DNA from: a virus
Taxonomy: Duplodnaviria > Caudoviricetes
Strand: one strand, 5' to 3'
IMG/VR virus record: IMGVR_UViG_3300036853_000145
Coordinates: 1-32,435 of that record
DNA length: 32,435 nucleotides
Shown here in pieces: positions 1 through 32,259 of the stretch. The position numbers were made by a program, and so were the translations under genes. Positions within the stretch are counted from its first letter, which is position 1. Every line of letters starts with the position of its first letter. A model generated the notes under the pieces. The model searched no databases. It was not told the DNA's origin and saw nothing but the letters and a program-made list of their open reading frames with translations.

Positions 1-744
1 GCGGCGGCCAACTCGGTCCCGTTCGACGACGGCGGGCTCCCGGGCCCGTCCCCGGGCCTGCTGGGCGGCAAGGCGGGTGTGTCGCTGATGGGCGGCTCCA
101 CGATCGGCGGCAACGCCACCGGGACCGGGCCCACGCTGAACCCCGGCCAGAAGTTCGGCAACTTCGAGATCGGCGGCCCGCCCAAGCCGATCTCGCCGAA
201 CGTCTACGGCGCGCCGAACTCGAAGGCCAACCGGATCGCCAAGAAGTACAACCAAGCGCTCGGGGGCGAGGTCCCGTCGTGGGAGGCGTCGGCCGCGCTG
301 GCCTACTCGGGCTCGGGCTACAGCTCGATGAACGGCCCGCTGTGGTCCGACAACTTCGACGGCGCCGATGACCTGACCAAGGCCCAGATCACCAACCTGA
401 CGAACCTGATCAACCGGTGGAAGGCACCGGAGACCATGACGGCGACGCGCGGGCTGAACTACGACCCGGGGATGCCCGACCCGCCCGCCGAGGGGATGAC
501 CTACACGGCGAAGGGTTTCCAGTCCACGTCGATCGGCGCGGGCGCTTTCACCAGCAAGAACGTCGTTATGAAGATCACCGTTCCGAAGGGCATGCCGGGC
601 GCGGTGCTCAACGGTGGCGGGCTGAGCCACTTCCCGCACGAAGAGGAACTGGTGCTCCCGCACGGCACCCGCTACGCGATCACCAAGGACACGATGAAGG
701 GGGGCAAGCGATGGCTGGAAGTGACGGCACTCCCGCCCGAGTAG
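1..744 (+). CDS. C-terminal part of a protein with a VIP2/C2-like (R-S-E) ADP-ribosyltransferase domain; probably a head-region (MuF-type) fusion, truncated by the window edge
   Basis: Frame is open from base 1. Catalytic pattern TATRG (R at 448-450), FQSTS (523-531) and HEEELVLPHG (ExE at 640-648). The MuF link is inferred from position only. Confidence 0.8.
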   Translation, partial: AAANSVPFDDGGLPGPSPGLLGGKAGVSLMGGSTIGGNATGTGPTLNPGQKFGNFEIGGPPKPISPNVYGAPNSKANRIAKKYNQALGGEVPSWEASAALAYSGSGYSSMNGPLWSDNFDGADDLTKAQITNLTNLINRWKAPETMTATRGLNYDPGMPDPPAEGMTYTAKGFQSTSIGAGAFTSKNVVMKITVPKGMPGAVLNGGGLSHFPHEEELVLPHGTRYAITKDTMKGGKRWLEVTALPPE

Positions 745-1975: not shown

Positions 1976-2001
1976 CCCCGAAAAGGAAGGACGCTCCCCC
2001 G

Positions 2002-2631: not shown

Positions 2632-2764
2632 GCCGCGCGGGCGGCCGGCTCACTGTCCGGGGCGCGTACCCCGTCCGTCGTGCCGGCCTGCCCCGCGCGG
2701 TTGCGCGCGGTGCTCACCCGGGCGTCCCCGGGGCGTAGCCGCGCCCTGTCCAGAGGATACGACG

Positions 2765-2800
2765 GCGGCCCCGCCGGGCTCCAACTCCCGACGGGGCCGC
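2765..2800 (-). terminator. GC-rich hairpin, 14-bp stem, probable terminator of a - strand transcript
   Basis: Arms 2765-2778 and 2787-2800. The single mismatch is a G-U pair only in the - strand RNA. Confidence 0.45.
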
Positions 2801-2933
2801 GCCCTAGTCGCACCACCGGCCGGTCAACGCCTGTGCCTCCGAGACCTGGGTACGTGTTCCACGCTAGCGGCTCGGCCGTGCTGGTGGGATCGATGAACCG
2901 GAATGCAACGGGATGGCACGGGATGAACCACCT

Positions 2934-2977
2934 CCCATGGGTTGCGCGGGCTCTCTCCCATGGGTTAGTCTTCTCCC
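2934..2977 (+). promoter_or_regulatory. paired-palindrome promoter P1 (leaderless)
   Basis: CCCATGGG(2934)-TTGCGC(-35)-N9-CCCATGGG(2957)-T-TAGTCT(-10)-N6-ATG 2978. Confidence 0.8.
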
Positions 2978-3304
2978 ATGACGCACACCCAAGCCCCCGC
3001 CGTAGCAGTCGGAACCCCCGCCACCCAGGTCTACGTGACCGACTCCCGCGCCCTGGTCGTCTCCCGGGTCAGCGCGTCCGGCCGGACCATCTGGACCCAG
3101 AGCGTGGAGCTGGACGAGTCCACCCGGCGCCGGGAGACCGAACTCCTGGCCGAGGGCGAGCCCCCCGTAATGCTGGTGAACGGCGACCTGACCAAGCCCT
3201 ACGGCCCAGAGCGGCAGTGGCGCTGGACCCGGGGCGCCTGGCGCAACGGCGGCGACCGGGTCTACCTGGGCCACTCGATCCAGCGGGTCGACTACAAGAT
3301 GTGA
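2978..3304 (+). CDS. hypothetical phage protein
   Basis: ATG 6 nt after the -10 of P1; GC3-biased codons. Confidence 0.75.
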   Translation: MTHTQAPAVAVGTPATQVYVTDSRALVVSRVSASGRTIWTQSVELDESTRRRETELLAEGEPPVMLVNGDLTKPYGPERQWRWTRGAWRNGGDRVYLGHSIQRVDYKM

Positions 3305-3321
3305 GCCCCGGCGGGGGGGCA

Positions 3322-3338
3322 CCCCCCCCCCCCCCCCC
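3322..3338. repeat. 17-nt poly-C tract preceded by G7
   Basis: Read directly; intergenic. Confidence 0.85.
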
Positions 3339-3356
3339 TACCCCTGGGAGATCCCG

Positions 3357-3596
3357 ATGGCCGTCACCCTGCTCGAAGACACCCCGTCGCACGTTCTGCG
3401 CACCGCCCTGGAGCGCCTGCGTCCCGACGGCGCCACTGCCGCCCGCGTGCGCGAGGAACTGGCCGAACGCCTGGAAGCACAGCTGGCCCGCGACGAAGAC
3501 GGGTCCGACGCCTACGTGCGTCACCTGGAGCTGGCCGGCTACGACGAAGCTCGCTACCAAGAGCGGATGGAAGCTCAGCTCGGCATCCCGATGTGA
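3357..3596 (+). CDS. hypothetical protein
   Basis: CCTGGGAG motif at 3343-3350 upstream; followed by a terminator. Confidence 0.75.
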   Translation: MAVTLLEDTPSHVLRTALERLRPDGATAARVREELAERLEAQLARDEDGSDAYVRHLELAGYDEARYQERMEAQLGIPM

Positions 3597-3603
3597 CCGA
3601 AGT

Positions 3604-4317: not shown

Positions 4318-4378
4318 CGGCACCCCGGTTCCCCGGCACCCCGCCCCCGCGCGGCACCCCGGACGTGACGGCACCCCG
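4318..4378 (+). repeat. four exact CGGCACCCCG direct repeats in the capsid leader
   Basis: Copies start at 4318, 4334, 4352 and 4369. Confidence 0.85.
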
Positions 4379-15136: not shown

Positions 15137-15378
15137 TGGGCGACTACCTGGCCGACCTCTTCCCGACCGAGCAGACCCCCGGGCGCCCGGTGGCTCTCGG
15201 CGCCTACATGACCGCGTGGGACCCGGTGACCGGATGGAACACCGTCAGCGTCGGGGCGACGAACTACACCGACCTCCCGGCCGTGCGCGCCACGGTCGCC
15301 GGGATCGGCCCGGTCCTGATCCTGTTCACCCCCGAGCCAGTCATCATCGGCACGGTTTCCCCGGCCGCTCCCCGGTAG
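15136..15378 (+). CDS. small minor tail protein
   Basis: TGATG coupling; beta-rich, 80 aa. Confidence 0.65.
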   Translation: MGDYLADLFPTEQTPGRPVALGAYMTAWDPVTGWNTVSVGATNYTDLPAVRATVAGIGPVLILFTPEPVIIGTVSPAAPR

Positions 15379-15391
15379 AAAGGCGCTCCCC
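15365..15391 (+). promoter_or_regulatory. virion-gene start motif CCGCTCCCC-N3-AGAAAGGCGCTCCCC
   Basis: Abuts ATG 15392; same architecture at 16806-16832. Confidence 0.7.
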
Positions 15392-15772
15392 ATGACCATC
15401 GGATTGTCTAAGCTGGCCGCCGTAGAACGGCTCACGGCTTGGGCCACGAAGTACACCTATCTCCAGCTCCACGTCGGCGACCCGGGCGCGAACGGCACGG
15501 CGAACATCGCCGCCGAGAACACCCGCGTGGCGGTCACCTGGGGCACCCCGGATGACACGGTGGCCGGTGTCGTCACGCTGACCCACTCGAACGACCTGGT
15601 GATCACCACGGCGGCGGCCACCGAAGACTGGTCCTTCCTGGCCCACTTCTCGGCCAGCACGGCCGGGGACTTCGGCGGCTCGGGCACCATCACCGCCGAC
15701 CCGATCACCGTGGGCTCGGACCGGACGTTCCCGGCCGGCTCGGTCATCGTCACGGTTCCGGTGGCTGCCTGA
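15392..15772 (+). CDS. minor tail / tail-fibre-associated protein
   Basis: YLQLHVGDPGANGTAN...RVAVTWG and FPAGS pattern. Confidence 0.7.
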   Translation: MTIGLSKLAAVERLTAWATKYTYLQLHVGDPGANGTANIAAENTRVAVTWGTPDDTVAGVVTLTHSNDLVITTAAATEDWSFLAHFSASTAGDFGGSGTITADPITVGSDRTFPAGSVIVTVPVAA

Positions 15773-16805: not shown

Positions 16806-16832
16806 CCGCTCCCCCGCAGAAAGGCGCTCCCC
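16806..16832 (+). promoter_or_regulatory. virion-gene start motif, second full copy
   Basis: CCGCTCCCC-CGC-AGAAAGGCGCTCCCC abutting GTG 16833. Confidence 0.7.
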
Positions 16833-19249: not shown

Positions 19250-19853
19250 GCCGCTCTCACCGTGGCTGCTGCCCGGGGCCCTGGTCCTGGTCGCCGTGGC
19301 CGTGAGCGCGCTCGGTTTCTCGGTGGGGGACCGGGCGAGCACGGCCGAGCAGGCCAAGGTCCAGACCGATCAGGTGGTCAACACCGTGACCGCCGAGCGC
19401 GACGCCACGGCCGGACAGGCGGTAGACCTGGCCACCCTGGTCCGTGATCGCTGTGAAGCCGGCGCCATCGGCGACACCGACGTGTGCTCGGCGGCGGCGG
19501 TGGTCCAGGCCGCGCCGGTGCCTGCTGTGCCGGGCCCTCCCGGTGACCCGGGCACCCCTGGTGCTGCGGGTCCGACCGGCGCAGCTGGCACCACCCCGCC
19601 GTGCCTGTTCCTGCCGTCCCAATGCGTCGGCCCGCCCGGCCCGCCAGGACCACCAGGGCGCGACGGGGCCGACTCCACGGTGCCTGGCCCGCCCGGGGCT
19701 GACTCCACGGTGCCCGGCCCGCAGGGGCCGCCCGGACGTGACGGGGCCGACTCCACGGTGCCCGGTCCGCAGGGCCCGCCCGGCCCGCCAGGACCGCCCG
19801 GGGTCGACGGCGCCCAGTCCGGCTTCACCGAGGCACCGCCTGCGGACTCCTGA
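19209..19853 (+). CDS. membrane-anchored collagen-like protein
   Basis: N-terminal TM, Cys pairs, Gly-X-Y repeats with GADSTVPGP three times. The start could be ATG 19221. Confidence 0.75.
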
Positions 19854-20287
19854 TGTTCCCGACCCCGCTGGAGATCCTGATGGCCTGGACCCTAAATCTC
19901 CGGCGCCGACTGCTGGCGCCGGTGCTCGAAGCGATCGACGAGATGGAGACACGACTCATGACCCGTGCAGATGAGCTGGTGGCCCGGCTGAACGACGCCA
20001 CCAACGAACTGGCCAGCGACCTGCGCGACCTGCGCTCGGCACTGGAGGAGGCCACGGCCGGCTCGGACAGCAAGGTGGCCCAGGCCGTCAACGCGGCCCT
20101 GGACGGTTTCGAGGGCCCGATCTCGGCCCTTGAGGCCATGGGCGCCGACCAGTCCGCGCCGGTGCCGGACGGGCCGGCTGGCCCGGGACCGAGCGATGGC
20201 GGCGACGGCATCCCGGCCGGGCCGACCACCCCGGCCGATGAGCCCGACACCGAGCCCGGCGACGGGCAGCTCCCGAACGACCAGTAG
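19853..20287 (+). CDS. hypothetical coiled-coil protein, last gene of the + operon
   Basis: TGATG coupling; GC3 bias. Confidence 0.7.
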
Positions 20288-20337
20288 GGCAAGCGTCACC
20301 TGGTGGATCATGTACTACCGGCCGTAGTATCGGCGCC

Positions 20338-20414
20338 GTGGTTCTGTCTACTCCCAGGTGATCGAATCCCACAGCGAAGGGCCCCCCGGATTCCGGGGGG
20401 CCCTTCGTGTTGTG
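20338..20414 (+). ncRNA. candidate trans-acting small RNA antisense to the CCTGGGAG ribosome-binding regions
   Basis: -10-like TAGTAT at 20325-20330; seed GTTCTGTCTACTCCCAGGTGATCG at 20341-20364; terminator 20375-20407; no credible ORF. Ends are estimated. Confidence 0.55.
20375..20407. terminator. probable bidirectional terminator between the two genome arms, perfect 15-bp stem
   Basis: CGAAGGGCCCCCCGG-ATT-CCGGGGGGCCCTTCG followed by TGTTGTG. Confidence 0.85.
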
Positions 20415-20420
20415 CGGGGA

Positions 20421-20804
20421 TCAGATCCACTTCTCGTACTCGGCCAGCCGGCGCAGGGCCGCCGCCCGCCGGGCCTCCGTCTCGCCGGCCAGCTTGGCGT
20501 CCAGCGCCTTGACCCAGTCCGGCAGTTCGGGCGCCCGCTGGAGACCGGTCTCCAGGTCGCGGACCCGGGCGAACGCGGCATCGGCCTGGCTACCCAGCTC
20601 GCTGAGCTGGACTTCCAGGTCGGACACCTCGCCCTCGGCCTCTTCGGCACGCTCGACCAGCCGCAGCTCCCGGTCGCGGTGCAACTCGCGCTCGGCAGTC
20701 AGCTCGGCTTCCAGCTGGTCCAGCGCCTCGCCGAAGCGCTGCTGTGCGGCGCGGGCCTCGACCAGGGCTTGGCCCAAGGCATCGGTGAAGTGGTACGTAG
20801 CCAT
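20421..20804 (-). CDS. hypothetical coiled-coil protein
   Basis: SD/motif variant CCTGAGGAG; ends at the terminator. Confidence 0.75.
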   Translation of the reverse strand: MATYHFTDALGQALVEARAAQQRFGEALDQLEAELTAERELHRDRELRLVERAEEAEGEVSDLEVQLSELGSQADAAFARVRDLETGLQRAPELPDWVKALDAKLAGETEARRAAALRRLAEYEKWI

Positions 20805-20857
20805 GTTCGTCTCCTCAGGTGAAGGGGCCGGGGCCCGATCGGGCCCCGGCCGGTCGT

Positions 20858-21121
20858 TCAGCGCTCCAGCAGCTCCCAGAAGCGGCGCTCGTCATCGTCC
20901 TGGCAGTAGACGGCCTCCTCGGCCCTCTCTGCCGCAGCGGCGGCCTCAGCGATCGCCAGAGCCTGCGCGGGGTTCGGCTGGTCCATCTGTCCTCCCAGGG
21001 ACGGGGCCCAGGCCACGCGGCTGGTGTCCAGCTGCGCGCCCGGCCAGAAGTGGAAGCCCCTGATCGGCGCCGGGGAGACCAGCAGGACCACCAGCGCCAG
21101 GACCAGGAGCAACTTCGTCAT
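20858..21121 (-). CDS. hypothetical protein with hydrophobic N-terminus; internal second start at 20986
   Basis: Leaderless ATG 6 nt after the -10 of P2; in-frame ATG 20986 has CCTGGGAGG upstream. Confidence 0.6.
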   Translation of the reverse strand: MTKLLLVLALVVLLVSPAPIRGFHFWPGAQLDTSRVAWAPSLGGQMDQPNPAQALAIAEAAAAAERAEEAVYCQDDDERRFWELLER

Positions 21122-21165
21122 GGGAGAAGACTAACCCATGGGAGAGAGCCCGCGCAACCCATGGG
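21122..21165 (-). promoter_or_regulatory. paired-palindrome promoter P2 (identical to P1)
   Basis: CCCATGGG at 21158-21165 and 21135-21142; -35 TTGCGC; -10 TAGTCT. Confidence 0.8.
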
Positions 21166-22698
21166 TCACTCGTCCTCGAACGGCTCCAGGAGATGCCGCA
21201 CCAGGTGCGCGTAGGCATCGGGCAGATCGTCGTGGACCAGCGCCAGAGAGCCCCACATCTGGAGGTCGGTCTCGGTCTCGGGCAGGCGTTGGGAGTGCCA
21301 GACCTGCTCCTCTTCGGCGAAGTACAGCGCGCGGGCGATCCGATCCATCTTCGACATACGCCCGGCCGCGTGCACCTCCAGCTCGACGCCCGGCGGCAAG
21401 ATCGGCTCGATGACCCCGATCCACAGCGCCGAGCCCTGGTTCCCCTCCACGCGGACCTTGCGGATCGCCGGGTTCGCCGCCAGGTGCCGCTTCACCCGCT
21501 CGGCCAGCTGGCCCGGCGTGGTCCGGAACTTCGAGCCGTGCAGGATCACCGCGCGGGCCTTGGGGATGGCGAGACTGGCCGGCACCAGGCCGCCGACCAC
21601 CAGCGCCGTGTAGTCCGAGGTCGGGTCCGCCGTCGGGGCCGGGTCAATTTGCATGACCAGCGGCTTGCCGTCCAGCCATTCCAGCCCGCCGTAGCGGAAC
21701 GTCTCGGGCTTCCAGTTGTGCCCGCCCGGCAGCGGCGGCCAGCCGGCGAAGTTCAGGAGGTAGTTCAGCGTGTGCTCGATGCGCTCCAGGTAGCCCAGCG
21801 CGTAGCGCTGGGGCCAGAAGCTGCGCCGCACACCCGTGGCCGGGTCTTCCTGGATCGCCGGCACGTAGTGCACGGTGAAGTGCTCGTCATCGATCCACTG
21901 TTCCTGGCGGCCCTCCCGGCGGGCCTTGCGCGCCACCGCGTGCATGATCGAGTCGTACATGGTCACGGTGCCCATCAGCACCACGGCGGCCTGCTCGTTC
22001 ATCGGCAACACGGTGTTAAGCAGGGTCTCCAGGCGCTTCTTGCGCGCGGCCACGGAGTAGTTCGAGGCATCGGGCTCGATGTCGTCGCACACCAGCCCGT
22101 CGGGCCGCTTGCCGCCGATGTTGAGCCCGAGCATCCGGGTATTCATCCCGCGCACGGCGAAGATCGCCCCACCGCGCGCGGTGTAGGTGTCCTGCGAGTC
22201 CCGGGCCCCGCGCGTGCCGATGCGCGGCGGGGCCATGTCCGGGAAGTCGCGCAGCAGGACGCCGTTCGAACCAACCTCGTTCCGGAACGTGGCCATGGCC
22301 AGCCGGGCCTGATCGCTGGAGTCCGAGAGCCAGCCGAAGAACCGGCGGTGCCCGTGGCACAGCGCCCACAGCACCAGGATCACGGTCCACGTCGTCTTGG
22401 CCGCACCGCGCGGGGCCACCCAGGCGTCCCGGCACGCGCCCGGCCGGGACCACTTCGCCGCTGCCTTGGCCATGGCGAAGTGGTGCTCGGCGAGGCTGGA
22501 CACGTTGCCCGTCTCCGGGCTGCGGAGCAGGTGCGGCAGGTACACCAGGGCGAAGCGCACCGGCGACCACCGGGTGACGTCCCGACGGAACTGGCCGTTC
22601 ACCTCGATGGCCGGTGTCCACTCGCCCTGGTACCGCTCGGTCACGGTCCAGGGCTCGAACAGTGCGTCTCGGTCGACGGTCGCCGGCAGCGCGATCAC
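21166..22698 (-). CDS. terL: terminase large subunit
   Basis: Walker A APRGAAKTT, Walker B LVCDDIE, motif LMGT, nuclease acidic residues MQIDPA...SDYTA and HDDLPDA. Confidence 0.9.
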   Translation of the reverse strand: MIALPATVDRDALFEPWTVTERYQGEWTPAIEVNGQFRRDVTRWSPVRFALVYLPHLLRSPETGNVSSLAEHHFAMAKAAAKWSRPGACRDAWVAPRGAAKTTWTVILVLWALCHGHRRFFGWLSDSSDQARLAMATFRNEVGSNGVLLRDFPDMAPPRIGTRGARDSQDTYTARGGAIFAVRGMNTRMLGLNIGGKRPDGLVCDDIEPDASNYSVAARKKRLETLLNTVLPMNEQAAVVLMGTVTMYDSIMHAVARKARREGRQEQWIDDEHFTVHYVPAIQEDPATGVRRSFWPQRYALGYLERIEHTLNYLLNFAGWPPLPGGHNWKPETFRYGGLEWLDGKPLVMQIDPAPTADPTSDYTALVVGGLVPASLAIPKARAVILHGSKFRTTPGQLAERVKRHLAANPAIRKVRVEGNQGSALWIGVIEPILPPGVELEVHAAGRMSKMDRIARALYFAEEEQVWHSQRLPETETDLQMWGSLALVHDDLPDAYAHLVRHLLEPFEDE

Positions 22699-23978
22699 GA
22701 CGGGCTCTCCTGCCCGAGTTCGCCGGTCCGGTCGGTGGCCTGCTCGGCGCGGTGCGCCCGCTCGTTCGCCGCGCGGGCCATCTCGACCAGTGCGGCGTTC
22801 TTCCGGTCCGCGTCGGCCAGCTCGGCCCGTGCTTCGTCCCGCTCGGCGATGACGTGCTCGGTGTGCTCGCGCATCTTCACGGCGGCCTTGACCCGGTCGA
22901 TCAGCGGTCCGGCAGAGCGTCGGGGGCCGATTTCGGGGATCGAGTTCAGGACGCTACGCAGCTCTGCGTGGTTGCGCTTCTCGGCCTGGAGTTCGGCCAC
23001 CACGCGCCGGGCCACCTCCAGCGCGGTGTTGCGCAGCTCCTGCGGGTCCATCTCGTCGTAACCCGGTGCCCAGTTCCCGAGCACCCGCAGGACGTCCTTC
23101 AGTCCGTCCGGCGCGTCACCCCGGGCAAGCCGGCCCTGGAGCTGGCGCACGGTCTGGCGGGCCTCGGCCAGCTCGCGCTCCCGGAGCTGGAGGGTCTGGG
23201 CCCGCTTCTCGGCCAGCTCGGCGGCGGCGGCCCGGTTCGTCTCCAGGTTCTCGATCGTGGCGCCGCGCTTCCGCACGACGTCTGCCAAGTGGTCGGCGTC
23301 CTGCTCGGCCTTCCGGCGGGCTTGCTCGATCGCGCGCACGGCGCCCATGGGCATAGCATCGCCGCGCCCGACCGGGCTGTCCGCCGGGTCGGCGTCGTAG
23401 CGCGCGGCGACCAGCCCCCGCAGGGCCTGCGCCCCGCTGGCCAGGGCCCGCAGGATGTTGCCCGAACTGCGCTGGGCCACCGGCTCGGGCACGGTGGTCG
23501 GTTCCACCATCAGCTCGGCCAGCAGCTCGGCCGCGCCCTCCAGGTCGGCCGCTACGCGGTCCGCGACGTCCCCGGGCCCCTCGTCCAGGCTGGCCGCCTC
23601 CGGGGCGCTCCAGCCCTTCCAGGCCGACACCATGGGCGGCGCAGGGTCGACCTGGAAGTCCTCCGGCGAGAAGGCACGGGGGTCCAGCGGCGGGATCTCC
23701 TCGGCCATCAGCGCGGCCAGGCGCGGCTTCTCGTCATCCTCCGGGGTCAGGGCCTCCCAGAGCTTCACGGACTCGGCGATGGCCAGCTCGGCGCGCAGGG
23801 CGGTCAGCTCGCGCCCCTCGGCCGCGCTGGGATTGAACCGGGGATCGGTCATCATCTCGTGCCCGGCGCCGTACGCGGCAGCACGGTGTTCATCGTCGAC
23901 GCGCCCGTTGCTGGCTCGCAGCGCGTCCGTCCAGGCCAGCACGTTCACCCGGACGTCGTTCCACTTGCTCTTGCTCAT
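22695..23978 (-). CDS. hypothetical coiled-coil protein, 427 aa
   Basis: ATG 23978 with GGGAG SD and ATGA coupling; the ORF-track extension to 24281 overlaps the upstream gene. Confidence 0.7.
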   Translation of the reverse strand: MSKSKWNDVRVNVLAWTDALRASNGRVDDEHRAAAYGAGHEMMTDPRFNPSAAEGRELTALRAELAIAESVKLWEALTPEDDEKPRLAALMAEEIPPLDPRAFSPEDFQVDPAPPMVSAWKGWSAPEAASLDEGPGDVADRVAADLEGAAELLAELMVEPTTVPEPVAQRSSGNILRALASGAQALRGLVAARYDADPADSPVGRGDAMPMGAVRAIEQARRKAEQDADHLADVVRKRGATIENLETNRAAAAELAEKRAQTLQLRERELAEARQTVRQLQGRLARGDAPDGLKDVLRVLGNWAPGYDEMDPQELRNTALEVARRVVAELQAEKRNHAELRSVLNSIPEIGPRRSAGPLIDRVKAAVKMREHTEHVIAERDEARAELADADRKNAALVEMARAANERAHRAEQATDRTGELGQESPS

Positions 23979-24436
23979 GATCCACTCCCGGTGTCGTCGT
24001 CGATCGCCGCACGATCGCGCGCGGCGATCGCATGCGCCTCGCGGATGGCCCGGATCATCTCGGGGTCCGGGCGCGGCTCGTCGGTGTGCAGCGTGACCGT
24101 GGTCGGCGCGTACCCACCGTGGATCTTCAGAATCTCGCGGACCACGGTCACCACGACCGGGGCCACCTTCTCGAACTCGGCGCCCTTCTCGTCCAGGCGC
24201 TGGAGCCCGCGCGCCTTCAGTTCTTCGAGCAGGCCGGTCGCGTCGGCCACGATCTCGGCCCGGTTGTAGGCCGGCACCCACTGCTCGGCGTGCTCGAAGA
24301 TCCGCACGTAGCTGCGCGCGGTCTCCGTGGAGACCCCGAGCGCGCGGGCGATGTCGGCCAGGTAGGCACCGTCACGGCGCATCAGGCCGGCGCGGGCGAC
24401 CTTGCGCGGGTCGGGCGCCGGACGTCCCCCGGGCAT
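23975..24436 (-). CDS. HTH protein, probable terminase small subunit
   Basis: HTH (GAYLADIARALGVSTETARSYV), helical core, then KIHGGYAP resembling the LLG.DAP ending of TerS-like proteins; upstream of terL. Confidence 0.6.
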   Translation of the reverse strand: MPGGRPAPDPRKVARAGLMRRDGAYLADIARALGVSTETARSYVRIFEHAEQWVPAYNRAEIVADATGLLEELKARGLQRLDEKGAEFEKVAPVVVTVVREILKIHGGYAPTTVTLHTDEPRPDPEMIRAIREAHAIAARDRAAIDDDTGSGS

Positions 24437-24642
24437 CACGGACCCCCGTGGCCAAGTCGGTCGCCGATGACGTCGGTGACACCCTCCATCGCGTCAACGA
24501 AGGTCCGCAGCTCGAACGCGGTCGAGTCGTTGATCAGATCGGCCAGGTGGTCGTCATCGCCGTTCAGGGCGGCGATCAGGGCGTGCGTCTCGGCGTAGGG
24601 CCCGACGTCGGGGCCGCAGCGATCGCAGCTGTTGGTCTGCAT
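24436..24642 (-). CDS. small hypothetical protein (CxxC)
   Basis: ATG 24642 with CCTGGGAG 8 nt upstream. Confidence 0.65.
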   Translation of the reverse strand: MQTNSCDRCGPDVGPYAETHALIAALNGDDDHLADLINDSTAFELRTFVDAMEGVTDVIGDRLGHGGP

Positions 24643-24706
24643 TTCGTCCACTCCCAGGGACACGGACGGCCGGACCCGGTAGGGGCCCGGCCGTCACGGA
24701 TCGGTA

Positions 24707-24874
24707 TCAGGCGCGCTTGCGGCGCCTCTTCACGGTCGGGTTGCTGTTGGTGGCCACGGCCTTCTGCAGCCGGGTCGGGCGCCCGGTCGTGGCTTCCTTG
24801 ACGGCGGCCTGGTGCGTGCAGAAGCCCTGCTCGAACCCGGACCCGCACCAGCACTTGCGCTTGAAGATCCCCAC
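24707..24874 (-). CDS. small basic protein with SEC-C-like motif (CWCGSG...C.H)
   Basis: GTG 24874 (or 24880) with AGGAG SD. Confidence 0.6.
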   Translation of the reverse strand: MGIFKRKCWCGSGFEQGFCTHQAAVKEATTGRPTRLQKAVATNSNPTVKRRRKRA

Positions 24875-24876
24875 GG

Positions 24877-25152
24877 TCACATCTCCTGCTCGGGACGGTC
24901 GGCGTACGGGTCCGCGTAGGCGCGGGTCGCCCGCCCCTGCGCGGCCAGCATCGTCCGACGGTTCTCCTGGGCGGCGTACATGCGCGCCGCCCAGGCGCTG
25001 GACCCCGCAGCGAACAGCGCTGCGCCGATGGCCCACAGCCACAGGCTCAGCCCGAGCGCGACCACGGCGACCAGGGCCGCCACGGCCGACAGGCTCAGGG
25101 CCGCCAGACGGACCCGGGCCTGTTCGACGTCCAGGTGATCGCGCTCGGTCAT
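24877..25152 (-). CDS. two-TM membrane protein
   Basis: Hydrophobic stretch; SD GAGGAG. Confidence 0.7.
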   Translation of the reverse strand: MTERDHLDVEQARVRLAALSLSAVAALVAVVALGLSLWLWAIGAALFAAGSSAWAARMYAAQENRRTMLAAQGRATRAYADPYADRPEQEM

Positions 25153-25155
25153 GGC

Positions 25156-25377
25156 CTACTCCTCGGTACTCGGGGCGCGCCGCACCGGTGGCGGCGGCGC
25201 CGGGATGTCGTGCTGTTCGCGCAGCTGGGCAGCGGCCTTACGGATGCGGCCCACCTCCGCGCGCTGGCGCCGGGTGCCGGCACCCTCGTTCAGGTCGTCG
25301 GCGTAGTCGGCGAGCACGGCGGCGATCTCTTCGGAGTCGTCCGCGTCTCGCCACCACGGGTTGCTGACGTTCGGCAT
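25156..25377 (-). CDS. hypothetical protein
   Basis: CCTGGGAGG upstream. Confidence 0.7.
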   Translation of the reverse strand: MPNVSNPWWRDADDSEEIAAVLADYADDLNEGAGTRRQRAEVGRIRKAAAQLREQHDIPAPPPPVRRAPSTEE

Positions 25378-25413
25378 TGCTCTGTCCTCCCAGGACTTCG
25401 GTACTGCTCGGTC

Positions 25414-25878
25414 TTACTGGTCCGGGTGCTCGGCCAGGTTCAGCTCCGCTTCCACGGTGGCCAGGCGGTCGGCCAGGGCCTGCGTACGGGCGCCCAGGGC
25501 CTCCAGCGGGATGTTCAGATCACCGCCCAGGCGCTCCAGTTCCCCCTGAAGCCGGACGCGCTCGGCGCGCAGCCCCGAGACCCTGGCCCCGGTGCTGTAA
25601 GGCTCGGTCCGGGTCGCGCCGGAGGTCTGGCCCTTCCGGATGCGGAACAGGTGGCCGTCGCTGACCATCCCCGACGCCACCACTTCGGCGTGCGTCAGGT
25701 CGCCGTGGGCCAGGGCTTCACGGATCAGCTCGTCGCGCTGGCGCTTGAGTTCCTGGATCGCCGGCCAGGTGGTGCGGTCGTGGATCTCCCTGATGTCGTC
25801 CAGCGTGATCGGCACGCGGGCGACGCCAGCAGCGATGTCCTCCGGCGTCCGCCGGCCGGTCTCGTTGGTCGTCATCAT
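25414..25878 (-). CDS. HTH-like DNA-binding protein with C-terminal coiled coil
   Basis: QRDELIREALAHGDLTHAEVVASGMVSDGHLFRIRKG resembles an HTH; ATG 25878 lies 7 nt after the -10 of P3 (ATG 25875 is an alternative). Confidence 0.6.
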   Translation of the reverse strand: MMTTNETGRRTPEDIAAGVARVPITLDDIREIHDRTTWPAIQELKRQRDELIREALAHGDLTHAEVVASGMVSDGHLFRIRKGQTSGATRTEPYSTGARVSGLRAERVRLQGELERLGGDLNIPLEALGARTQALADRLATVEAELNLAEHPDQ

Positions 25879-25885
25879 GTCCTCC

Positions 25886-25922
25886 ACAGTAACCCATGGG
25901 AGCCCCGGCGCCTACCCATGGG
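25886..25922 (-). promoter_or_regulatory. paired-palindrome promoter P3
   Basis: CCCATGGG at 25915-25922 and 25893-25900; -35 TAGGCG; -10 TACTGT; 17-bp spacer. Confidence 0.75.
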
Positions 25923-25951
25923 GCAGGTGCCGGGGCTCCCGGTGGTGTCGG

Positions 25952-26362
25952 TCAGTCGTTCCCGTGCTCCCCGGTGCCGTAGCCGGCCCGGCGGAACATC
26001 TCGTTCAGCTCGTCGATCGACGGCGCCGCGCCCTCGGGCAGCTTGTCCCGGGCCGCACCATCGCTTGGGCCGGCGAAGGCGGCGAGCAAGCGCTGCGCCC
26101 GCTCGTCACCATCGGCGTGGTTGGCCAGGTGCCGCAGGATCTGAACGGACGTCCTGTCCTCGCCCAGGTGCTCCTGCACCTTGCTCGCGGTATCGGCGGT
26201 CAGCCGGCCGAGCAGCATGGTGATCGCCAGAGCGACGCCACCCGCCTCGGCCACCGCATCGGCCTCCACCGTCACTTCACCGGTGTCCACCTGGCCGTCG
26301 GGCTGCTGGTCCCCGGCCATGTACTCCACGACCAGCTTCGCCCGGATCATGCGCTCGTTCAT
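25952..26362 (-). CDS. hypothetical protein
   Basis: ATG 26362 with CCTGGGAG 5 nt upstream. Confidence 0.7.
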   Translation of the reverse strand: MNERMIRAKLVVEYMAGDQQPDGQVDTGEVTVEADAVAEAGGVALAITMLLGRLTADTASKVQEHLGEDRTSVQILRHLANHADGDERAQRLLAAFAGPSDGAARDKLPEGAAPSIDELNEMFRRAGYGTGEHGND

Positions 26363-26432
26363 CGTTGCTCCCAGGTGATGGGGCCGATCGGCCCCGAAGG
26401 CCGGGGGGCCCGGTCGGGCCCCCCGGAGTCTG

Positions 26433-27029
26433 TCAGCCCTGCCCGAGCCAGCGGCGCCCCGCGCGCTCGTCCAGGGCACTGCGGACCCGGTCCGCCTGGT
26501 TCCGCAGTGCCGTGTTCTCTTCCAGCCGGAGCCCGGCCAGCCGGCGGTAGTTGTCGCGCTGGTCCTCGGCCTCGGCCAGGGCGTGCCGGACCTCCCGGTA
26601 TGCCTTGTCCGAGTTCGCCCGCTGGCGCAGCAGCTCCCCGACCCGCTCGTCGCTGGCCTCCAGCTGCTCGCGCAGGCTCGCGATCTGGGCCTGGTACCGG
26701 TCGCGCTCGTCGGCCAGGTCGGCGATCCGGTCGGCACCCGCGTCGCGGGCCTGGCGCTCCAGCTCGTCGACCCGGACAGCCTTGGCGACGGCCAGGTCGA
26801 CCGCCTTGGCCAGCTGGTCCTCCAGCTCGGCGATCCGCAGGGCGTCCACCCGGCGCTGGTCGGCCTGGCGCTCGGCGATGGCCTCCAGGTGCGCGACCCG
26901 GTCAACCGGGGCCGGCACGCTGGCCGGGTCGCCCAGGTTCGCGATGATCGGGCTCACGTGACCGGCCTCGAAGGCGGCCTTCTCGATCCCGTCAACGAAG
27001 GGGCGGGGGGCGGAGGTCTGAGCGGACAT
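26433..27029 (-). CDS. hypothetical coiled-coil protein
   Basis: SD GGAGG; first gene after P4; followed by hairpin 26401-26426. Confidence 0.75.
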   Translation of the reverse strand: MSAQTSAPRPFVDGIEKAAFEAGHVSPIIANLGDPASVPAPVDRVAHLEAIAERQADQRRVDALRIAELEDQLAKAVDLAVAKAVRVDELERQARDAGADRIADLADERDRYQAQIASLREQLEASDERVGELLRQRANSDKAYREVRHALAEAEDQRDNYRRLAGLRLEENTALRNQADRVRSALDERAGRRWLGQG

Positions 27030-27077
27030 CGGGGCCTCCAGGGCCTCGGGGGCCGGCTTGTCCGGCCCGATGAGAGA

Positions 27078-27115
27078 AGGCTATCCCATGGGTCACGGTC
27101 CGCGCAACCCATGGG
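27078..27115 (-). promoter_or_regulatory. paired-palindrome promoter P4
   Basis: CCCATGGG at 27108-27115 and 27085-27092; -35 TTGCGC; -10 TAGCCT. Confidence 0.8.
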
Positions 27116-27128
27116 ATAGAACTTCTTC

Positions 27129-27911
27129 TCAGTCCTTCTTCGGCTCCAGCCAGTACAGGCCCATGGTCTCGCTGATCCCGCGTGCGCCGCCCTGGATCTT
27201 CCCCGCCTTGGCCAGTGCCTGGAGCGCAAGAGCCACCGAGGTCTTGGCCCGGTTGGCCGGCAGGCGATCGGAAATGTTGCCCTCGATCGCGGACGGGCTC
27301 CACTTCAGCCCCGGGTGTTCCTCCAGGAAGGCCAGCACCTCACGGCGGCAGAGCGCCGACACCGAGAGCGGCTTCGGCTTCGGGCGCGGCGCAACGGTCT
27401 CCAGCCGGCCGTCCATCTCCGTGACCTTGGTGTCCAGGCCGGCGACCAGCCCGGCCACCGTGGTCTCGGACTCCTCCAGCCGACGGGCCAGGATGCTGAG
27501 CTGGCCTTTCAGGTCCTCGTACGCCTTGCGGTAGTCGAACGGCACGACCGTCGGGCGCTGGACGTAGGGCGAGTCGCCGTTGCCCCTGATGTTCGTCCGG
27601 TCCTCGGCCGGCGGACGAGTGGGCTCGGTTGGTGCGGCCACGGTGGGCTCCTTCTTCGTGATCACCGGCGGCTGATCCGCCGGAGTGTCTGCCAGGACGT
27701 CGATCCCACGTTTACGCAGGTCCGACAGGAGGTTGGCGCGTCCGGCACCTCTGGTACCGATGTGCAGCGCGGAGAACGAGAGTGGGGGCTTGCTCGGATC
27801 GCCGGGATAGACCTTGAAGTTGTGCCCGTCGCGTATCACGCGGGCCCCTCGGGCCTCGCATCGCTTGGCGATCTCGTCGGGGGTCATGCTTCCTAGGCCG
27901 AGCTTGGCCAC
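27129..27911 (-). CDS. HicA-like N-terminal domain + coiled coil + C-terminal winged-helix-like domain
   Basis: EIAKRCEARGARVIRDGHNFKVYP...RANLLSDLRKRGID N-terminus; REVLAFLEEHPG..WSPSAI...SVALALQALAKAGKI C-terminus; GTG 27911 with CCTGGGAG upstream. Confidence 0.6.
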   Translation of the reverse strand: MAKLGLGSMTPDEIAKRCEARGARVIRDGHNFKVYPGDPSKPPLSFSALHIGTRGAGRANLLSDLRKRGIDVLADTPADQPPVITKKEPTVAAPTEPTRPPAEDRTNIRGNGDSPYVQRPTVVPFDYRKAYEDLKGQLSILARRLEESETTVAGLVAGLDTKVTEMDGRLETVAPRPKPKPLSVSALCRREVLAFLEEHPGLKWSPSAIEGNISDRLPANRAKTSVALALQALAKAGKIQGGARGISETMGLYWLEPKKD

Positions 27912-27928
27912 GGTTCCCTCCCAGGGGA

Positions 27929-28597
27929 TCAGTCGTCCCACCAGCCGAGGAGTTCGGCGGTGGGGTGCTCGATGTAGCGGGCCACCATCCGTAGCTGCGT
28001 CGGCGAATAGCGCCCGACCAGCACCCGGTTACAGGTGTCGCACAGGGCCCCGCGCGCGCACCGGCGGCACGCCTTCACGGTGTCGTGGTCGTGGCCGGCG
28101 GCTCGGCGGTGGTCGTGGTCCAGCGTCGGGGCCTTGCCAGTGCTGGTGAGCGCGCGCCCGCAGATGCACGCGGAGCCCTGCGCGGCCCACAGCTCGTCAC
28201 GGTCCTCCTCGGCCACTCCTCGGTCGCGCACTCGGGCACTCGCGCGCCTACGGGCCTTCTGGGCCGCCAGGCGGGCGCGCCGGTGCGTCGCGCACTCGGG
28301 GATGCGGGGGCCGGACTCGGGATCGAGCGGGCGGGGCTCGGCGGGACGGAACTCCATCACCGAGTCGGGGGCGCGGTAGACGCCGTCCATGACGCTCGGG
28401 GCCACGGGCAGCGCCGCGCAGGTGATGCACGGATGCACCAGGTGCGCCCGGCGGACGATCGACCCGCTGAACGCGCACCGGCCGCGTACGGCGTCGGTGC
28501 GCGGGTGCATGTGACGCGGGAACTCCCCGCCCAGCTCCACGCCGGTCAGGAGCCGCGTGCAGGCGGGGCAGATGGCGCGGAGCGGGCGGGGGTTCAT
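27929..28597 (-). CDS. endonuclease VII (Holliday-junction resolvase) family protein
   Basis: LWAAQG..CIC, LDHDH, C..C.RGALC..CN motifs; extra N-terminal Cys/His clusters. Confidence 0.85.
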   Translation of the reverse strand: MNPRPLRAICPACTRLLTGVELGGEFPRHMHPRTDAVRGRCAFSGSIVRRAHLVHPCITCAALPVAPSVMDGVYRAPDSVMEFRPAEPRPLDPESGPRIPECATHRRARLAAQKARRRASARVRDRGVAEEDRDELWAAQGSACICGRALTSTGKAPTLDHDHRRAAGHDHDTVKACRRCARGALCDTCNRVLVGRYSPTQLRMVARYIEHPTAELLGWWDD

Positions 28598-28599
28598 GG

Positions 28600-28758
28600 T
28601 CAGCTCTTCCTGTTCAGGGCCGACCGGAGGTAGCCGGCGATCTCGTGCGCGGCTCCGTTGGCCTCCTCCTCGTCCTGGGACCGCTGGCGCTCCAGCCTCT
28701 CTTCCAGGTCCCTGATCTGGCGCGGGGTCAGCTCCACGCGCCGGCTGTCGTCGCTCAT
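28600..28758 (-). CDS. small hypothetical protein
   Basis: TGATG coupling; MSDDSRRVELTPRQIRDLEERLE. Confidence 0.65.
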   Translation of the reverse strand: MSDDSRRVELTPRQIRDLEERLERQRSQDEEEANGAAHEIAGYLRSALNRKS

Positions 28759-28931
28759 CACTTCTCGCCTACCTTCCGCACCTTGCGTCCGTCGGGGTGG
28801 CGCACGTTGCGCCGGCCGTGCCAGAGATCGGTCAGCGTGTCGCTGACGGTGTTGGTCAGGGTCCAGGGCCGCCGGCACACCGGGCACGTCCAGACCTTGG
28901 CGCCGGTGTTGGGCACGTCGCAGTCGTGCAT
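28758..28931 (-). CDS. 57-aa Zn-ribbon-like protein (HxC...CPVC), missing from the ORF track
   Basis: Translated by hand as MHDCDVPNTGAKVWTCPVCRRPWTL...VGEK*; coupled to both neighbours. Confidence 0.7.
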   Translation of the reverse strand: MHDCDVPNTGAKVWTCPVCRRPWTLTNTVSDTLTDLWHGRRNVRHPDGRKVRKVGEK

Positions 28932-29116
28932 CAGCTCTGCTCCCGCTTCTGACGCTGCTGCTCAGACCGCAGGGTCCGGGCCGCGTACTCCTGCTCGGTC
29001 TCCTCGTCCAGTGCCCGAGCACTACGACGCCGGTTCAGCGACTCCCACTGCTCGTCGCTGATCGTGGAGCTGGCCGGCGGTGTCTCGGCACCGTCGCGCC
29101 CTCGGCTGTAGCCCAT
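28931..29116 (-). CDS. small hypothetical protein
   Basis: TGATG coupling. Confidence 0.65.
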   Translation of the reverse strand: MGYSRGRDGAETPPASSTISDEQWESLNRRRSARALDEETEQEYAARTLRSEQQRQKREQS

Positions 29117-29313
29117 CAGTTCTGGTCCCTCTTCTCGTAGCTCTGCCGCTGGAGGGCCGCGTAGTGCGCGGTGTCCTCATCGCTGCGGGTCTCGGAGCGG
29201 CGCTCCAGGTCGTCCATCTGCCGGCGCGAGATGTTGCCGATCGCGACCTTCGGGGCGTTGGCCCCGTCCGAGCCCGCGTTGCTGCCGTTCGCCGGCTTAC
29301 TTCCCCATGCCAT
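29116..29313 (-). CDS. small hypothetical protein, 65 aa
   Basis: ATG 29313 with GAGAGGA SD; the longer ORF-track start lies inside promoter P5. Confidence 0.65.
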   Translation of the reverse strand: MAWGSKPANGSNAGSDGANAPKVAIGNISRRQMDDLERRSETRSDEDTAHYAALQRQSYEKRDQN

Positions 29314-29329
29314 GGGTCTGTCCTCTCTG

Positions 29330-29500
29330 TGTTCCCAGGTGATCGTTTGGGCACTACGGCCGGACGGCGAATACCGCGCCCGGCCGGGTGGGAGGTCGGC
29401 CGCCGCTCCCCAGCGGCGGCCGACCTCCGGGTGGCGGACCTCCCCCGAGGTTCCGCCGGGCGCGCTCCCGGACTGTCGAATCCGGCGCTGCCCTACGTCT
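29330..29500 (-). ncRNA. highly structured RNA or long 5-prime leader downstream of P5
   Basis: Perfect 17-bp stem 29391-29407/29412-29428; second hairpin 29433-29457; enclosing helix 29375-29383/29456-29464; further outer pairings. Ends are estimated. Confidence 0.55.
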
Positions 29501-29505
29501 TGCTC

Positions 29506-29542
29506 AACGTAACCCGTGGGCGGGTATTCCGCCACCCATGGG
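29506..29542 (-). promoter_or_regulatory. paired-palindrome promoter P5
   Basis: CCCATGGG at 29535-29542 and variant CCCACGGG at 29513-29520; -35 TGGCGG; -10 TACGTT. Confidence 0.7.
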
Positions 29543-30515: not shown

Positions 30516-30543
30516 GTTCTGATGTCTCCCAGGTGGTAGAACT

Positions 30544-30738: not shown

Positions 30739-30813
30739 CGGTTTCTCCCAGGTCCCCGAGCTTCGGTCGAGCACCCGGCCGCCGGGCTCGGGGTCACCGG
30801 CGGCCGGGGGGTC

Positions 30814-31154: not shown

Positions 31155-31200
31155 GTTCTGCCTCCCAGGCTTCCGACCCTCCTGCGGGGCCGATGGGAGA

Positions 31201-31238
31201 ACAGTAACCCATGGGCGGGTGGTTGTGCAACCCATGGG
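31201..31238 (-). promoter_or_regulatory. paired-palindrome promoter P6
   Basis: CCCATGGG at 31231-31238 and 31208-31215; -35 TTGCAC; -10 TACTGT. Confidence 0.8.
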
Positions 31239-31439: not shown

Positions 31440-31618
31440 TTCGGCGGCTTGAGCGGCCAGACGACGCCAGCCGACACGGTGACCACCATGCCAAGCGCGA
31501 ACAGGAACGTCGCCCAGACACGCGCCGAGCTGTAGACAACGGTGTTGAACGCTGCCCAGGCGGCAACGCAGAGGATGGCCACCCCGAGCACGGCCAGGCC
31601 GAGCGCTACGGCCCTCAC
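31436..31618 (-). CDS. small two-TM membrane protein
   Basis: GTG 31618 overlaps stop 31615-31617. Confidence 0.6.
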   Translation of the reverse strand: MRAVALGLAVLGVAILCVAAWAAFNTVVYSSARVWATFLFALGMVVTVSAGVVWPLKPPK

Positions 31619-31782: not shown

Positions 31783-31879
31783 GGTCGCTCCCAGGGATCG
31801 GCGTCGGGCCCGACCGTACCGGGCCCGGGAACGGGAACAGCCCCGGCCGGTGGGCCCGGCCGGGGCTGCTGTGGGGGCT

Positions 31880-32221: not shown

Positions 32222-32259
32222 AAACTATCCCATGGGACAGAGGCCGGTCAACCCGTAGG
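32222..32259 (-). promoter_or_regulatory. paired-palindrome promoter P7
   Basis: Variant CCTACGGG at 32252-32259 and CCCATGGG at 32229-32236; -35 TTGACC; -10 TAGTTT. Confidence 0.7.

What the first reader, a model, noticed from the sequence alone, without database searches (positions are those of the whole stretch)
20338..29542. Model: reciprocal two-RNA early/late switch layered on a palindrome-operator regulon
This combines motifs seen directly. Non-virion genes have CCCATGGG-pair promoters and CCTGGGAG starts; several virion genes have CGCTCCCC starts. The RNA at the end of the virion operon is complementary to the CCTGGGAG starts, and its longest contiguous match (13 nt) is to the 3-prime end of the P5 structured RNA. 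The P5 RNA is in turn complementary to the CGCTCCCC starts. Inference: two mutually antagonistic RNAs, each silencing the other temporal class by covering class-specific RBS tags. I know of no described phage circuit of this form but cannot search the literature. The P5 arm is the weaker half of the model.
Basis: inference. Interest (0 to 1): 0.85.

Follow-up and report, generated by a model that had tools for sequence, protein, structure and literature searches.

The report
Phage small RNA mirrors early-gene tags
This uncultured phage marks about a third of its non-virion genes with a private ribosome-binding tag and carries one short non-coding stretch that is the tag's mirror image, a pairing that changes in step across related phages, so a small RNA likely switches those genes off together, while a second RNA predicted to do the reverse to virion genes is only weakly supported.

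Summary
The motifs are real; the two arms of the model are unequal. Arm 1 is well supported. CCTGGGAG precedes 10 non-virion starts. Its eleventh copy is reversed, in a non-coding unit of -10 hexamer, anti-tag stretch and terminator (20338-20412). The same unit, matching each phage's own tag (four tag sequences in all), occurs in 8 of 13 relatives examined. One tag was predicted from its unit before the genome was fetched, and was found. Late timing is not shown: 3 of the 9 units lie on the non-virion strand. The 13-nt match is a tagged gene start (gene 29313), not a separate RNA. Arm 2 is weak. P5 is a 5' leader with no terminator, its named seed is half buried, and CGCTCCCC is not enriched and marks 3 of 22 virion starts. 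Still, the same GGGG-loop cap recurs in three lineages, and GCTCCCC virion starts co-occur with it. The tag/operator layer resembles Cluster K SAS/ESAS, whose function is unknown. This scan has noted tag-plus-mirror RNAs in other phages (24 unchecked AI notes); a word look-up for a reciprocal pair found none. No transcript was seen.

The parts
20325..20330 (+). Predicted -10 hexamer (TAGTAT) of the small RNA; no operator pair, poor -35
   Evidence: Sequence; TAGGAT in G001; TANNNT at the same place in the units of eight relatives
20338..20373 (+). 5' domain of the candidate small RNA (RNA1), antisense to the CCTGGGAG tag and flanks; seed CUCCCAGG at 20351-20358
   Evidence: 36 of 36 nt identical in G001 against 90% for non-coding DNA overall; seed opening cost 1.9 kcal/mol; the domain's own fold is weak, z -0.9
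20374..20412 (+). Terminator-like hairpin with U-rich tail, between convergent virion and non-virion operons
   Evidence: Fold; paired change kept in G001
20295..20310 (+). Upstream arm predicted to mask the seed in read-through virion mRNA
   Evidence: Seed opening 10.9 with the arm against 1.9 kcal/mol without; 12.6 in G001; no such masking in six other lineages; 16 of 16 nt kept in G001
19853..20287 (+). Last gene of the virion-strand operon (144 aa, no PHROG family)
20992..20999 (-). CCTGGGAG tag, 5 nt before ATG 20986
24651..24658 (-). CCTGGGAG tag before ATG 24642
25387..25394 (-). CCTGGGAG tag before ATG 25377
26368..26375 (-). CCTGGGAG tag before ATG 26362 (12-nt match to RNA1)
27918..27925 (-). 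CCTGGGAG tag before GTG 27911; not kept in G001 (4 of 8 nt)
30526..30533 (-). CCTGGGAG tag before ATG 30515
30745..30752 (-). CCTGGGAG tag before ATG 30738
31162..31169 (-). CCTGGGAG tag before GTG 31154
31788..31795 (-). CCTGGGAG tag before ATG 31782
3343..3350 (+). CCTGGGAG tag before ATG 3357, in a non-virion cassette between protease and capsid genes; region not aligned in G001
29333..29345 (-). Variant tag with the 13-nt match to RNA1, start region of gene 29313-29116; best predicted RNA1 site of 52 starts (-18.9 kcal/mol)
   Evidence: 29313-29345 fully kept in G001
29116..29313 (-). First gene after the P5 leader (65 aa, no family found)
29346..29499 (-). P5 leader: four hairpins (29493-29458, 29457-29433, 29428-29391, about 29387-29357); two have GGGG loops; GGGAGCGC at 29462-29469
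   Evidence: Fold z -5.1; G.U pairs favour the - strand, -111.1 against -106.2 kcal/mol; three both-side changes in hairpin 2 with the loop kept in G001 (two sequences only)
29391..29428 (-). 17-bp hairpin capped by CGCU-GGGG-AGCG, the proposed seed against CGCTCCCC starts
   Evidence: Same cap once each in G002 and G012 on different stems; opening GGGGAGCG costs 12.8 against -16.1 kcal/mol of pairing
29506..29542 (-). P5 promoter: operator pair 29535-29542 and 29513-29520, -35 TGGCGG, -10 TACGTT
   Evidence: kept in G001
21128..21165 (-). Operator-pair promoter, leaderless ATG at 21121
25886..25922 (-). Operator-pair promoter
27078..27115 (-). Operator-pair promoter
31201..31238 (-). Operator-pair promoter
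32222..32259 (-). Promoter with one exact and one variant operator
2934..2971 (+). Operator-pair promoter, same sequence as the one at 21165; leaderless ATG at 2978
1992..1999 (+). CGCTCCCC before the prohead protease start
15366..15391 (+). Two CGCTCCCC copies flanking a GAAAGG ribosome site, virion gene 15392
16807..16832 (+). Two CGCTCCCC copies flanking a GAAAGG ribosome site, virion gene 16833
   Evidence: also in L096
21166..22698 (-). Terminase large subunit, on the operator-promoter strand; its start is untagged
   Evidence: phrog_38 E 1.7e-52

Best explanation
The phage carries a private tag overlapping the ribosome-binding site of 11 non-virion genes and one reversed copy in a short non-coding unit, which likely makes a ~75-nt small RNA that would pair with these tags and block their translation together. 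SHOWN in the sequence: tags, the reversed copy, a TANNNT hexamer 7 nt before the unit, a terminator-like hairpin after it, and the matching of unit to tag across relatives. INFERRED: that the unit is transcribed, that pairing represses, and that it acts after the operator-flanked sigma-A promoters have fired (about even odds for late timing). A phage repressor, not identified here, is inferred to bind the CCCATGGG pairs. Virion starts would escape because most are translationally coupled and three of the independent ones use A-rich GAAAGG/GAAGG sites that RNA1 cannot pair with. The P5 hairpins are best read as the structured leader of the gene-29313 operon, whose start is one more RNA1 target. 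Their G-loops may pair with a few CGCTCCCC virion starts, but a second, reciprocal silencing RNA is not established.
For: Tag statistics. The same unit with each phage's own anti-tag occurs in G001; G002 (tag GAACGGAGAC); G003, G010, G005 (CCTGGAGG); G012, L106, G020 (GAGAGGA). Advance prediction, noted: G012 should carry a CCGAGAGGACAC-like tag. One search found GAGAGGAC 26 times: 23 before non-virion start codons (20 of them starts my caller called), 0 of 34 virion starts, 1 the reversed copy, 2 antisense inside genes. The automatically chosen top 8-mer lay in the phage's own convergent gap with at most one G.U in 6 of 8 sequences, 5-11 of 300 shuffles each. A genome-wide detector (-10, anti-tag, hairpin, non-coding) gave one hit each in 7 of 11 sequences, and one strong plus one weak hit in G010. 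G017 is complete and has only a weak tag and no unit, as predicted. Predicted binding, both openings paid: 11 tagged starts mean -10.6 kcal/mol, other classes 0 to -2.6 (circular for the tag core).
Against: No transcript seen. The unit lies on the non-virion strand in G003, G010 and G005, so position does not show late timing. The RNA swap test is clear for the window, G002 and G012 as targets but not for G003, G005 or L106, and the G010 RNA scored 0 strong targets everywhere because its seed is predicted self-paired. The detector missed G003, whose copy has an extra U. The G020 tag rests on 1 of 6 non-virion starts. No unit was found in G017, G019 or G004/L104, and L096/L097 could not be tested. 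The 36-nt identity in G001 is not exceptional: three longer identical non-coding runs exist. In Cluster K the reversed SAS loop is exact in 3 of 8 aligned phages, a variant in 1 and lost in 4.
Confidence: 0.65

Rival explanations
1. Full reciprocal switch: the P5 G-loop RNA holds down CGCTCCCC virion starts early by loop-initiated strand displacement, and RNA1 later silences tagged genes and removes the P5 RNA by pairing just 3' of its hairpins.
For: GCTGGGGAGCG is invariant on different stems in the window, G001, G002 and G012, each on the non-virion strand and within about 110 nt of a start. G002 has a second G-rich loop in tandem. The 12-mer runs at about 0.5 per Mb in 41 actinobacterial genomes and is not enriched there (74 against 88 control), yet occurs 3 times in 474 kb of family DNA, always non-coding. 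GCTCCCC lies before 9 of 85 virion starts in the three cap-bearing sequences and 1 of 149 in six without; leaving out the window, 5 of 61, p 0.008. The G012 hairpin prefers its own virion starts, p 0.0014. The one change in the G001 cap is in the non-seed arm.
Against: Cap and target are both invariant, so there is no covariation. Class preference is not significant in the window (p 0.22) or G002 (p 0.34). Only 3 of 22 virion starts carry the motif, and the capsid start does not. The named seed nets about -3 kcal/mol; the best pairings use other G-runs and reach -7 to -9, no better than two untagged starts. No terminator closes P5, and in G002 and G012 the hairpin follows a stop codon like a terminator. 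CGCTCCCC also precedes primase genes and tagged non-virion genes. Five of the six cap-less sequences are fragments, and the counts are not independent.
Confidence: 0.17
2. RNA1 is real but not a late switch: it is made throughout infection as a dampener of tagged genes, or from a resident phage as an immunity RNA against kin with the same tag, as P1 c4 does.
For: Its promoter has no operator and no shared late element (tested and rejected). It lies on either strand across relatives. Tags differ between lineages, as heteroimmunity would favour.
Against: No integrase family among the 74 non-virion proteins of the complete G002 scanned or the 13 (11 overlap-free extras; not every protein was scanned). 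In 6 of 9 cases the unit closes the virion strand. Its weak -35 resembles the capsid promoters rather than the operator promoters.
Confidence: 0.2
3. The tag is a binding site for a phage or host protein (on mRNA or DNA), and the reversed copy is a DNA site or a relic gene start with no RNA role; the P5 hairpins are terminator or stability elements.
For: Pope et al. 2011 left protein or RNA open for SAS. The same GGGG cap tops a terminator-like hairpin in an unrelated provirus, L384. The G012 reversed copy is followed by a TTG at start-like spacing.
Against: The reversed copy always has a -10 hexamer 5' and a terminator 3' in the antisense reading, and the tag-sense reading always falls beyond the terminator. 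In G002, G003 and G020 it departs from the tag in ways that keep RNA pairing (G.U or a bulge). No start codon follows it in the window, G002, G010 or L106.
Confidence: 0.13

Closest known systems
[quoted passage not shown]
   Same: Asymmetric motif over the ribosome site of non-structural genes; inverted-repeat operators inside sigma-A-like promoters; four K1 phages are reported to have a single reversed SAS. I located the Adephagia copy at about 58,682-58,694, in a hairpin loop between genes 92 and 93, where the paper places the start of late transcription.
   Different: Different sequences (8-nt tag; paired 8-bp palindromes rather than 17-bp repeats). Here the reversed copy forms a free-standing promoter-to-terminator unit and changes with the tag; in Cluster K it sits in a long leader and is lost in 4 of 8 aligned phages. 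The passages read propose no antisense RNA and call SAS function unknown.
Phage antisense RNAs P22 Sar and P1/P7 c4 (review PMC12197685, passages)
   Same: Small phage RNA pairing over a phage ribosome-binding site to block translation; c4 specificity differs between related phages.
   Different: They control one antirepressor message in temperate phages; RNA1 would cover 11 or more unlinked starts through a shared tag. No Rfam match at gathering score.
6C sRNA of actinobacteria (PMC6486639, abstract and outline; Rfam RF01066)
   Same: Chaperone-independent G-C pairing from hairpin loops to many mRNAs, which makes loop-initiated pairing plausible in such a host; tandem loops like P5.
   Different: 6C is host-encoded with C-rich loops; the P5 loops are G-rich on the predicted strand. 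Only a sub-threshold 6C score (21 of 47 bits) on the terminator, none at P5.

Membership tests
Cluster K SAS/ESAS system | Asymmetric conserved motif at the ribosome site, a few nt before start codons | tested here: met
   10 of 11 CCTGGGAG copies lie 5-10 nt before a start
Cluster K SAS/ESAS system | Restricted to non-structural genes | tested here: met
   0 of 22 curated virion starts carry it
Cluster K SAS/ESAS system | The 13-bp SAS consensus and 17-bp inverted repeats of Cluster K | tested here: not met
   Tag and operator here are different sequences; an analogous system, not a member
Cluster K SAS/ESAS system | Inverted repeats overlapping a sigma-A-like promoter | tested here: met
   Palindromes precede the -35 and the -10 in seven promoters
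Trans-acting base-pairing small RNA | Own promoter and intrinsic terminator, no ORF | tested here: met
   Predicted only: -10 at 20325, hairpin with U-rich tail at 20374-20412; repeated in eight relatives
Trans-acting base-pairing small RNA | Accessible seed that changes together with its targets | tested here: met
   Opening cost 1.9 kcal/mol; four tag types matched; seed predicted less open in G003, G010, G012 (6.0-8.7)
Trans-acting base-pairing small RNA | Expressed transcript and measured repression | not testable with these tools
   Needs RNA data or reporters
Trans-acting base-pairing small RNA (P5 element) | Discrete RNA with its own 3' end | tested here: not met
   No terminator between the hairpins and gene 29313; processing not excluded
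Trans-acting base-pairing small RNA (P5 element) | Seed changes together with targets | tested here: inconclusive
   Both invariant; co-occurrence only
Rfam RNA families (6C, c4 and others) | Score at or above gathering threshold | tested here: not met
   0 matches in the window; only sub-threshold hairpin hits

The most novel reading that the evidence does not exclude
A phage family runs its early/late transition with two opposed RNAs: an early G-loop leader RNA that holds down CGCTCCCC-marked virion starts, and a late small RNA that silences a whole class of tagged early genes and binds just behind the G-loops to remove its opponent, with the early tag and its RNA free to change in step between phages.
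Probability: 0.17. Interest if true: 0.9.

Novelty: new variant of a known kind. Interest (0 to 1): 0.7.

Why it matters
Start-associated sequences of actinobacterial phages have had no known function since 2011 (still called unclear in PMC11373665 and PMC12699233). A cognate small RNA that changes with the tag gives a direct, cheap test: a ~75-nt RNA plus a tagged reporter. The reversed SAS in Adephagia's late leader offers the same test in a cultured phage. Four natural tag/RNA pairs would also be candidate orthogonal translational switches for high-GC bacteria. If the P5 arm held too, it would be a two-RNA temporal circuit of a form my searches did not find described.

Tried and rejected
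Rfam: nothing at gathering score. GenBank phages: only terminator-hairpin similarity to RNA1 and no close cultured relative (best terminase 37%, capsid 30%). Sequencing runs: no RNA holder was listed. A shared late-promoter element between RNA1 and the capsid gene (GATCAYGT) was rejected: spacing to the -10 differs (13 against 19 nt) and G001 does not keep the full match. A mini-ORF at 20309 was rejected: ATG is ACG in G001. The 13-nt best match in G002 lies before a Ro60/TROVE gene, not a P5 homologue. A reversed tag in the last codons of G003 terminase was set aside once the unit at 9033 was found. CsrA-type ANGGA loops fit only the G002 tag. P5 loops as a sponge for RNA1 do not generalise, since the cap is invariant while seeds change. 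An IMG/VR scan for the 14-nt cap was uninformative: 34 of 111 distinct hits extend their stem against 25% in shuffles, and only 19 of 64 parts were scanned. The two hits in L019 are coding. My structure string for hairpin 4 was out of register, so that helix is not used. Four terminase-only relatives (L019, L020, L021, L176) showed no clear tag or unit by eye. G014 was fetched but not tested for a unit. Literature searches that found no description of a tag-matched phage RNA or a reciprocal pair: (open-licence library only). The ZoeJ paper cited there and the supplementary figures of PMC3203893 were not seen and could bear on the reversed SAS.
Full report
Setting. The window is the whole record (32,435 nt), a fragment of a GC-rich (about 71%) tailed phage. 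Virion genes run on the + strand to 20287; terminase and small unknown genes run on the - strand. Best cultured matches are distant actinobacterial phages, so an actinobacterial host is inferred, not shown. A close relative, G001, aligns over 30,450 nt at about 87-90%. Genes in relatives were called with my own codon-score script, which misses some small genes and fails on the error-prone G010.

Observation. Six CCCATGGG pairs (0 expected) and one variant pair frame sigma-A-like promoters. CCTGGGAG occurs 11 times against 2.0 expected: ten copies 5-10 nt before non-virion starts and one reversed at 20351-20358. CGCTCCCC is not enriched overall (8 against 6.2); all copies are on +, and five sit at three virion starts. 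The 13-nt match is real, but its partner, 29333-29345, is the variant tag before gene 29313. The P5 stretch folds into four hairpins and runs into that gene without a terminator.

RNA1 anatomy. TAGTAT at 20325-20330 is followed 7 nt later by a 36-nt domain, then a hairpin with a U-rich tail. The domain's complement reads like a consensus start, extending into the spacers of several targets. The seed costs 1.9 kcal/mol to open in the short RNA but 10.9 in read-through mRNA, where 20295-20310 masks it; G001 keeps this, other lineages do not. Predicted binding, paying for both openings, averages -10.6 kcal/mol on 11 tagged starts, -2.6 on 19 untagged non-virion starts, -1.8 on 19 virion starts and 0 on the three GCTCCCC starts. 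That contrast is circular for the tag core, so the test that matters is in relatives.

Covariation. Relatives use other operators and other tags, and the gap at the convergent terminator carries the mirror of each phage's own tag with a TANNNT hexamer in front. G002 (complete, 73.8 kb) has tag GAACGGAGAC at 9 starts and a reversed copy with one G.U at 31463. G003 and G010 have CCTGGAGGAC, with a bulged copy in G003 and an exact copy in G010. G005 has CCTGGAGG. L106 and G020 have GAGAGGA (G020 on one start only). For G012 I wrote down the expected tag from its gap having seen only three of its non-virion starts and the similar L106 tag. The genome then showed GAGAGGAC at 23 non-virion start codons and 0 of 34 virion starts. 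An automatic top 8-mer was found in the own gap in 6 of 8 sequences, each in 5-11 of 300 shuffles; G010 and L104 failed. The genome-wide detector gave a single hit in 7 of 11 sequences, two in G010, none in G003, G017 or G019. In all, 8 of 13 tail-gene relatives with a visible convergent region have the unit, 3 lack it (G017, G019, G004/L104; none has a strong tag) and 2 cannot be tested (L096, L097). Swapping RNAs between phages is specific for three target genomes and unclear for three: own or same-tag RNAs give 10/31, 24/92 and 23-24/86 strong sites in the window, G002 and G012, but foreign RNAs match or beat the own RNA in G003, G005 and L106.

Timing. The unit is on the virion strand in the window, G001, G002, G012, L106 and G020, and on the other strand in G003, G010 and G005. 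Its promoter lacks operators and a good -35, as capsid promoters do, but I found no shared late element. Late expression is therefore plausible, not shown.

The P5 arm. For it: the cap CGCU-GGGG-AGCG recurs once each in G002 and G012 on unrelated stems, on the non-virion strand, shortly before a start. The 12-mer is not a host repeat: 74 matches against 88 for the control in 41 actinobacterial genomes. That count includes three unpublished genomes, G040, G045 and G052; without them it is 70 against 82. By my arithmetic 0.2-0.7 copies are expected in the 474 kb of family DNA and about a tenth of that in non-coding DNA; two were found beyond the window. GCTCCCC precedes 9 of 85 virion starts where the cap is present and 1 of 149 where it was not found, and complete G017 lacks both. 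Tandem loops could meet the tandem motifs at 15392 and 16833 (inference). Against it: no covariation; only 3 of 22 virion starts; class preference significant in G012 only; the named seed nets about -3 kcal/mol and the best pairings, -7 to -9, rank 2, 4 and 5 of 52; terminator-like position in G002 and G012; the motif also precedes primase and tagged non-virion genes; five of six cap-less sequences are fragments. The reciprocal link is also thin: the start behind the hairpin ranks 1 of 52, 4 of 119 and 31 of 120 for RNA1 binding.

Known systems. The tag/operator layer works like Cluster K SAS/ESAS but does not share its sequences. Pope et al. (PMC3203893, passages) note one reversed SAS in four K1 phages and leave protein or RNA binding open. 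In Adephagia that copy lies between genes 92 and 93, where late transcription is reported to begin (PMC11373665, section 19), and folds as an open loop. It is exact in 3 of 8 aligned K phages, a variant in 1 and absent in 4, so it is an echo, not a rule. Sar and c4 are phage antisense RNAs acting on one message (PMC12197685, passages). 6C RNA shows that loop G-C pairing works without chaperones in such hosts (PMC6486639, abstract). PMC7302621, PMC4351075 and PMC12699233 were seen as passages. Nine searches found no paper on a tag-matched phage RNA or a reciprocal pair. The scan's own notes list 24 tag-plus-mirror cases in other genomes, of which 8 were shown; these are unchecked and did not enter my odds. 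A look-up for the reciprocal form returned none, and none are held for this genome.

Verdict. One RNA against a class tag: likely (0.65 for the mechanism as stated; about 0.85 that the unit is a tag-pairing RNA of some timing). Full reciprocal switch: 0.17. New variant of a known kind; interest 0.7, because it makes the SAS question directly testable.

Noticed in passing
window 2750-2887: Longest non-coding stretch identical in G001 (138 nt), between the protease gene and the 2934 promoter; no significant fold on either strand (z -1.2 and -1.4). Unexplained; may be an uncalled gene or a DNA site.
   Followed up: partly
window 4319-4378: Four GGCACCCCG repeats in the capsid-gene leader, with similar arrays in G003, G007, G008 and G009; the leader is not well folded. 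A possible protein or G-loop binding array.
   Followed up: partly
window 2934-3600: A non-virion cassette with its own operator promoter (about 50 bp identical to that at 21165) and a tagged gene sits between the protease and capsid genes; it also holds a run of 16 C before the tag.
   Followed up: no
G003:45701, G010:29064, G004:8252; G007, G008, G009 capsid leaders: GATC-N3-TANNNT before capsid genes, a candidate late-promoter motif; the window and G001 instead keep GGTGATCAC 19 nt before the -10.
   Followed up: partly
G002:38332-40680 and G012:57970-60805: Ro60/TROVE gene (Pfam in G002; an RNA-binding PHROG family in G012) preceded by a long non-coding region with tRNA-like pieces, probably Y-RNA-like; each Ro60 start region carries the phage's tag.
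   Followed up: partly
G002, seven non-virion leaders (e.g. 35221, 52645): Operator-promoter transcripts begin with an identical hairpin whose loop ACGGA repeats the tag core, a possible loop-loop entry point for the cognate RNA.
   Followed up: no
L224:38560-38880 (Adephagia 58,559-58,879): Multi-hairpin leader after a conserved TAGACT hexamer, with stems kept across Cluster K phages while the anti-SAS loop varies.
   Followed up: partly
G003:44970-45700: Three repeats of a tRNA-T-arm-like element amid low-complexity repeats before the capsid gene.
   Followed up: no
L096:3526-3620 and L097:3371-3480: A -10-like hexamer overlapping the terminase stop codon, a short stretch and a terminator; possibly the same kind of unit, but too few non-virion starts are present to test.
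   Followed up: partly
window 1-744: ADP-ribosyltransferase-like domain (phrog_3895, E 8.6e-18) at the cut end, upstream of the lysin and protease genes.
   Followed up: no
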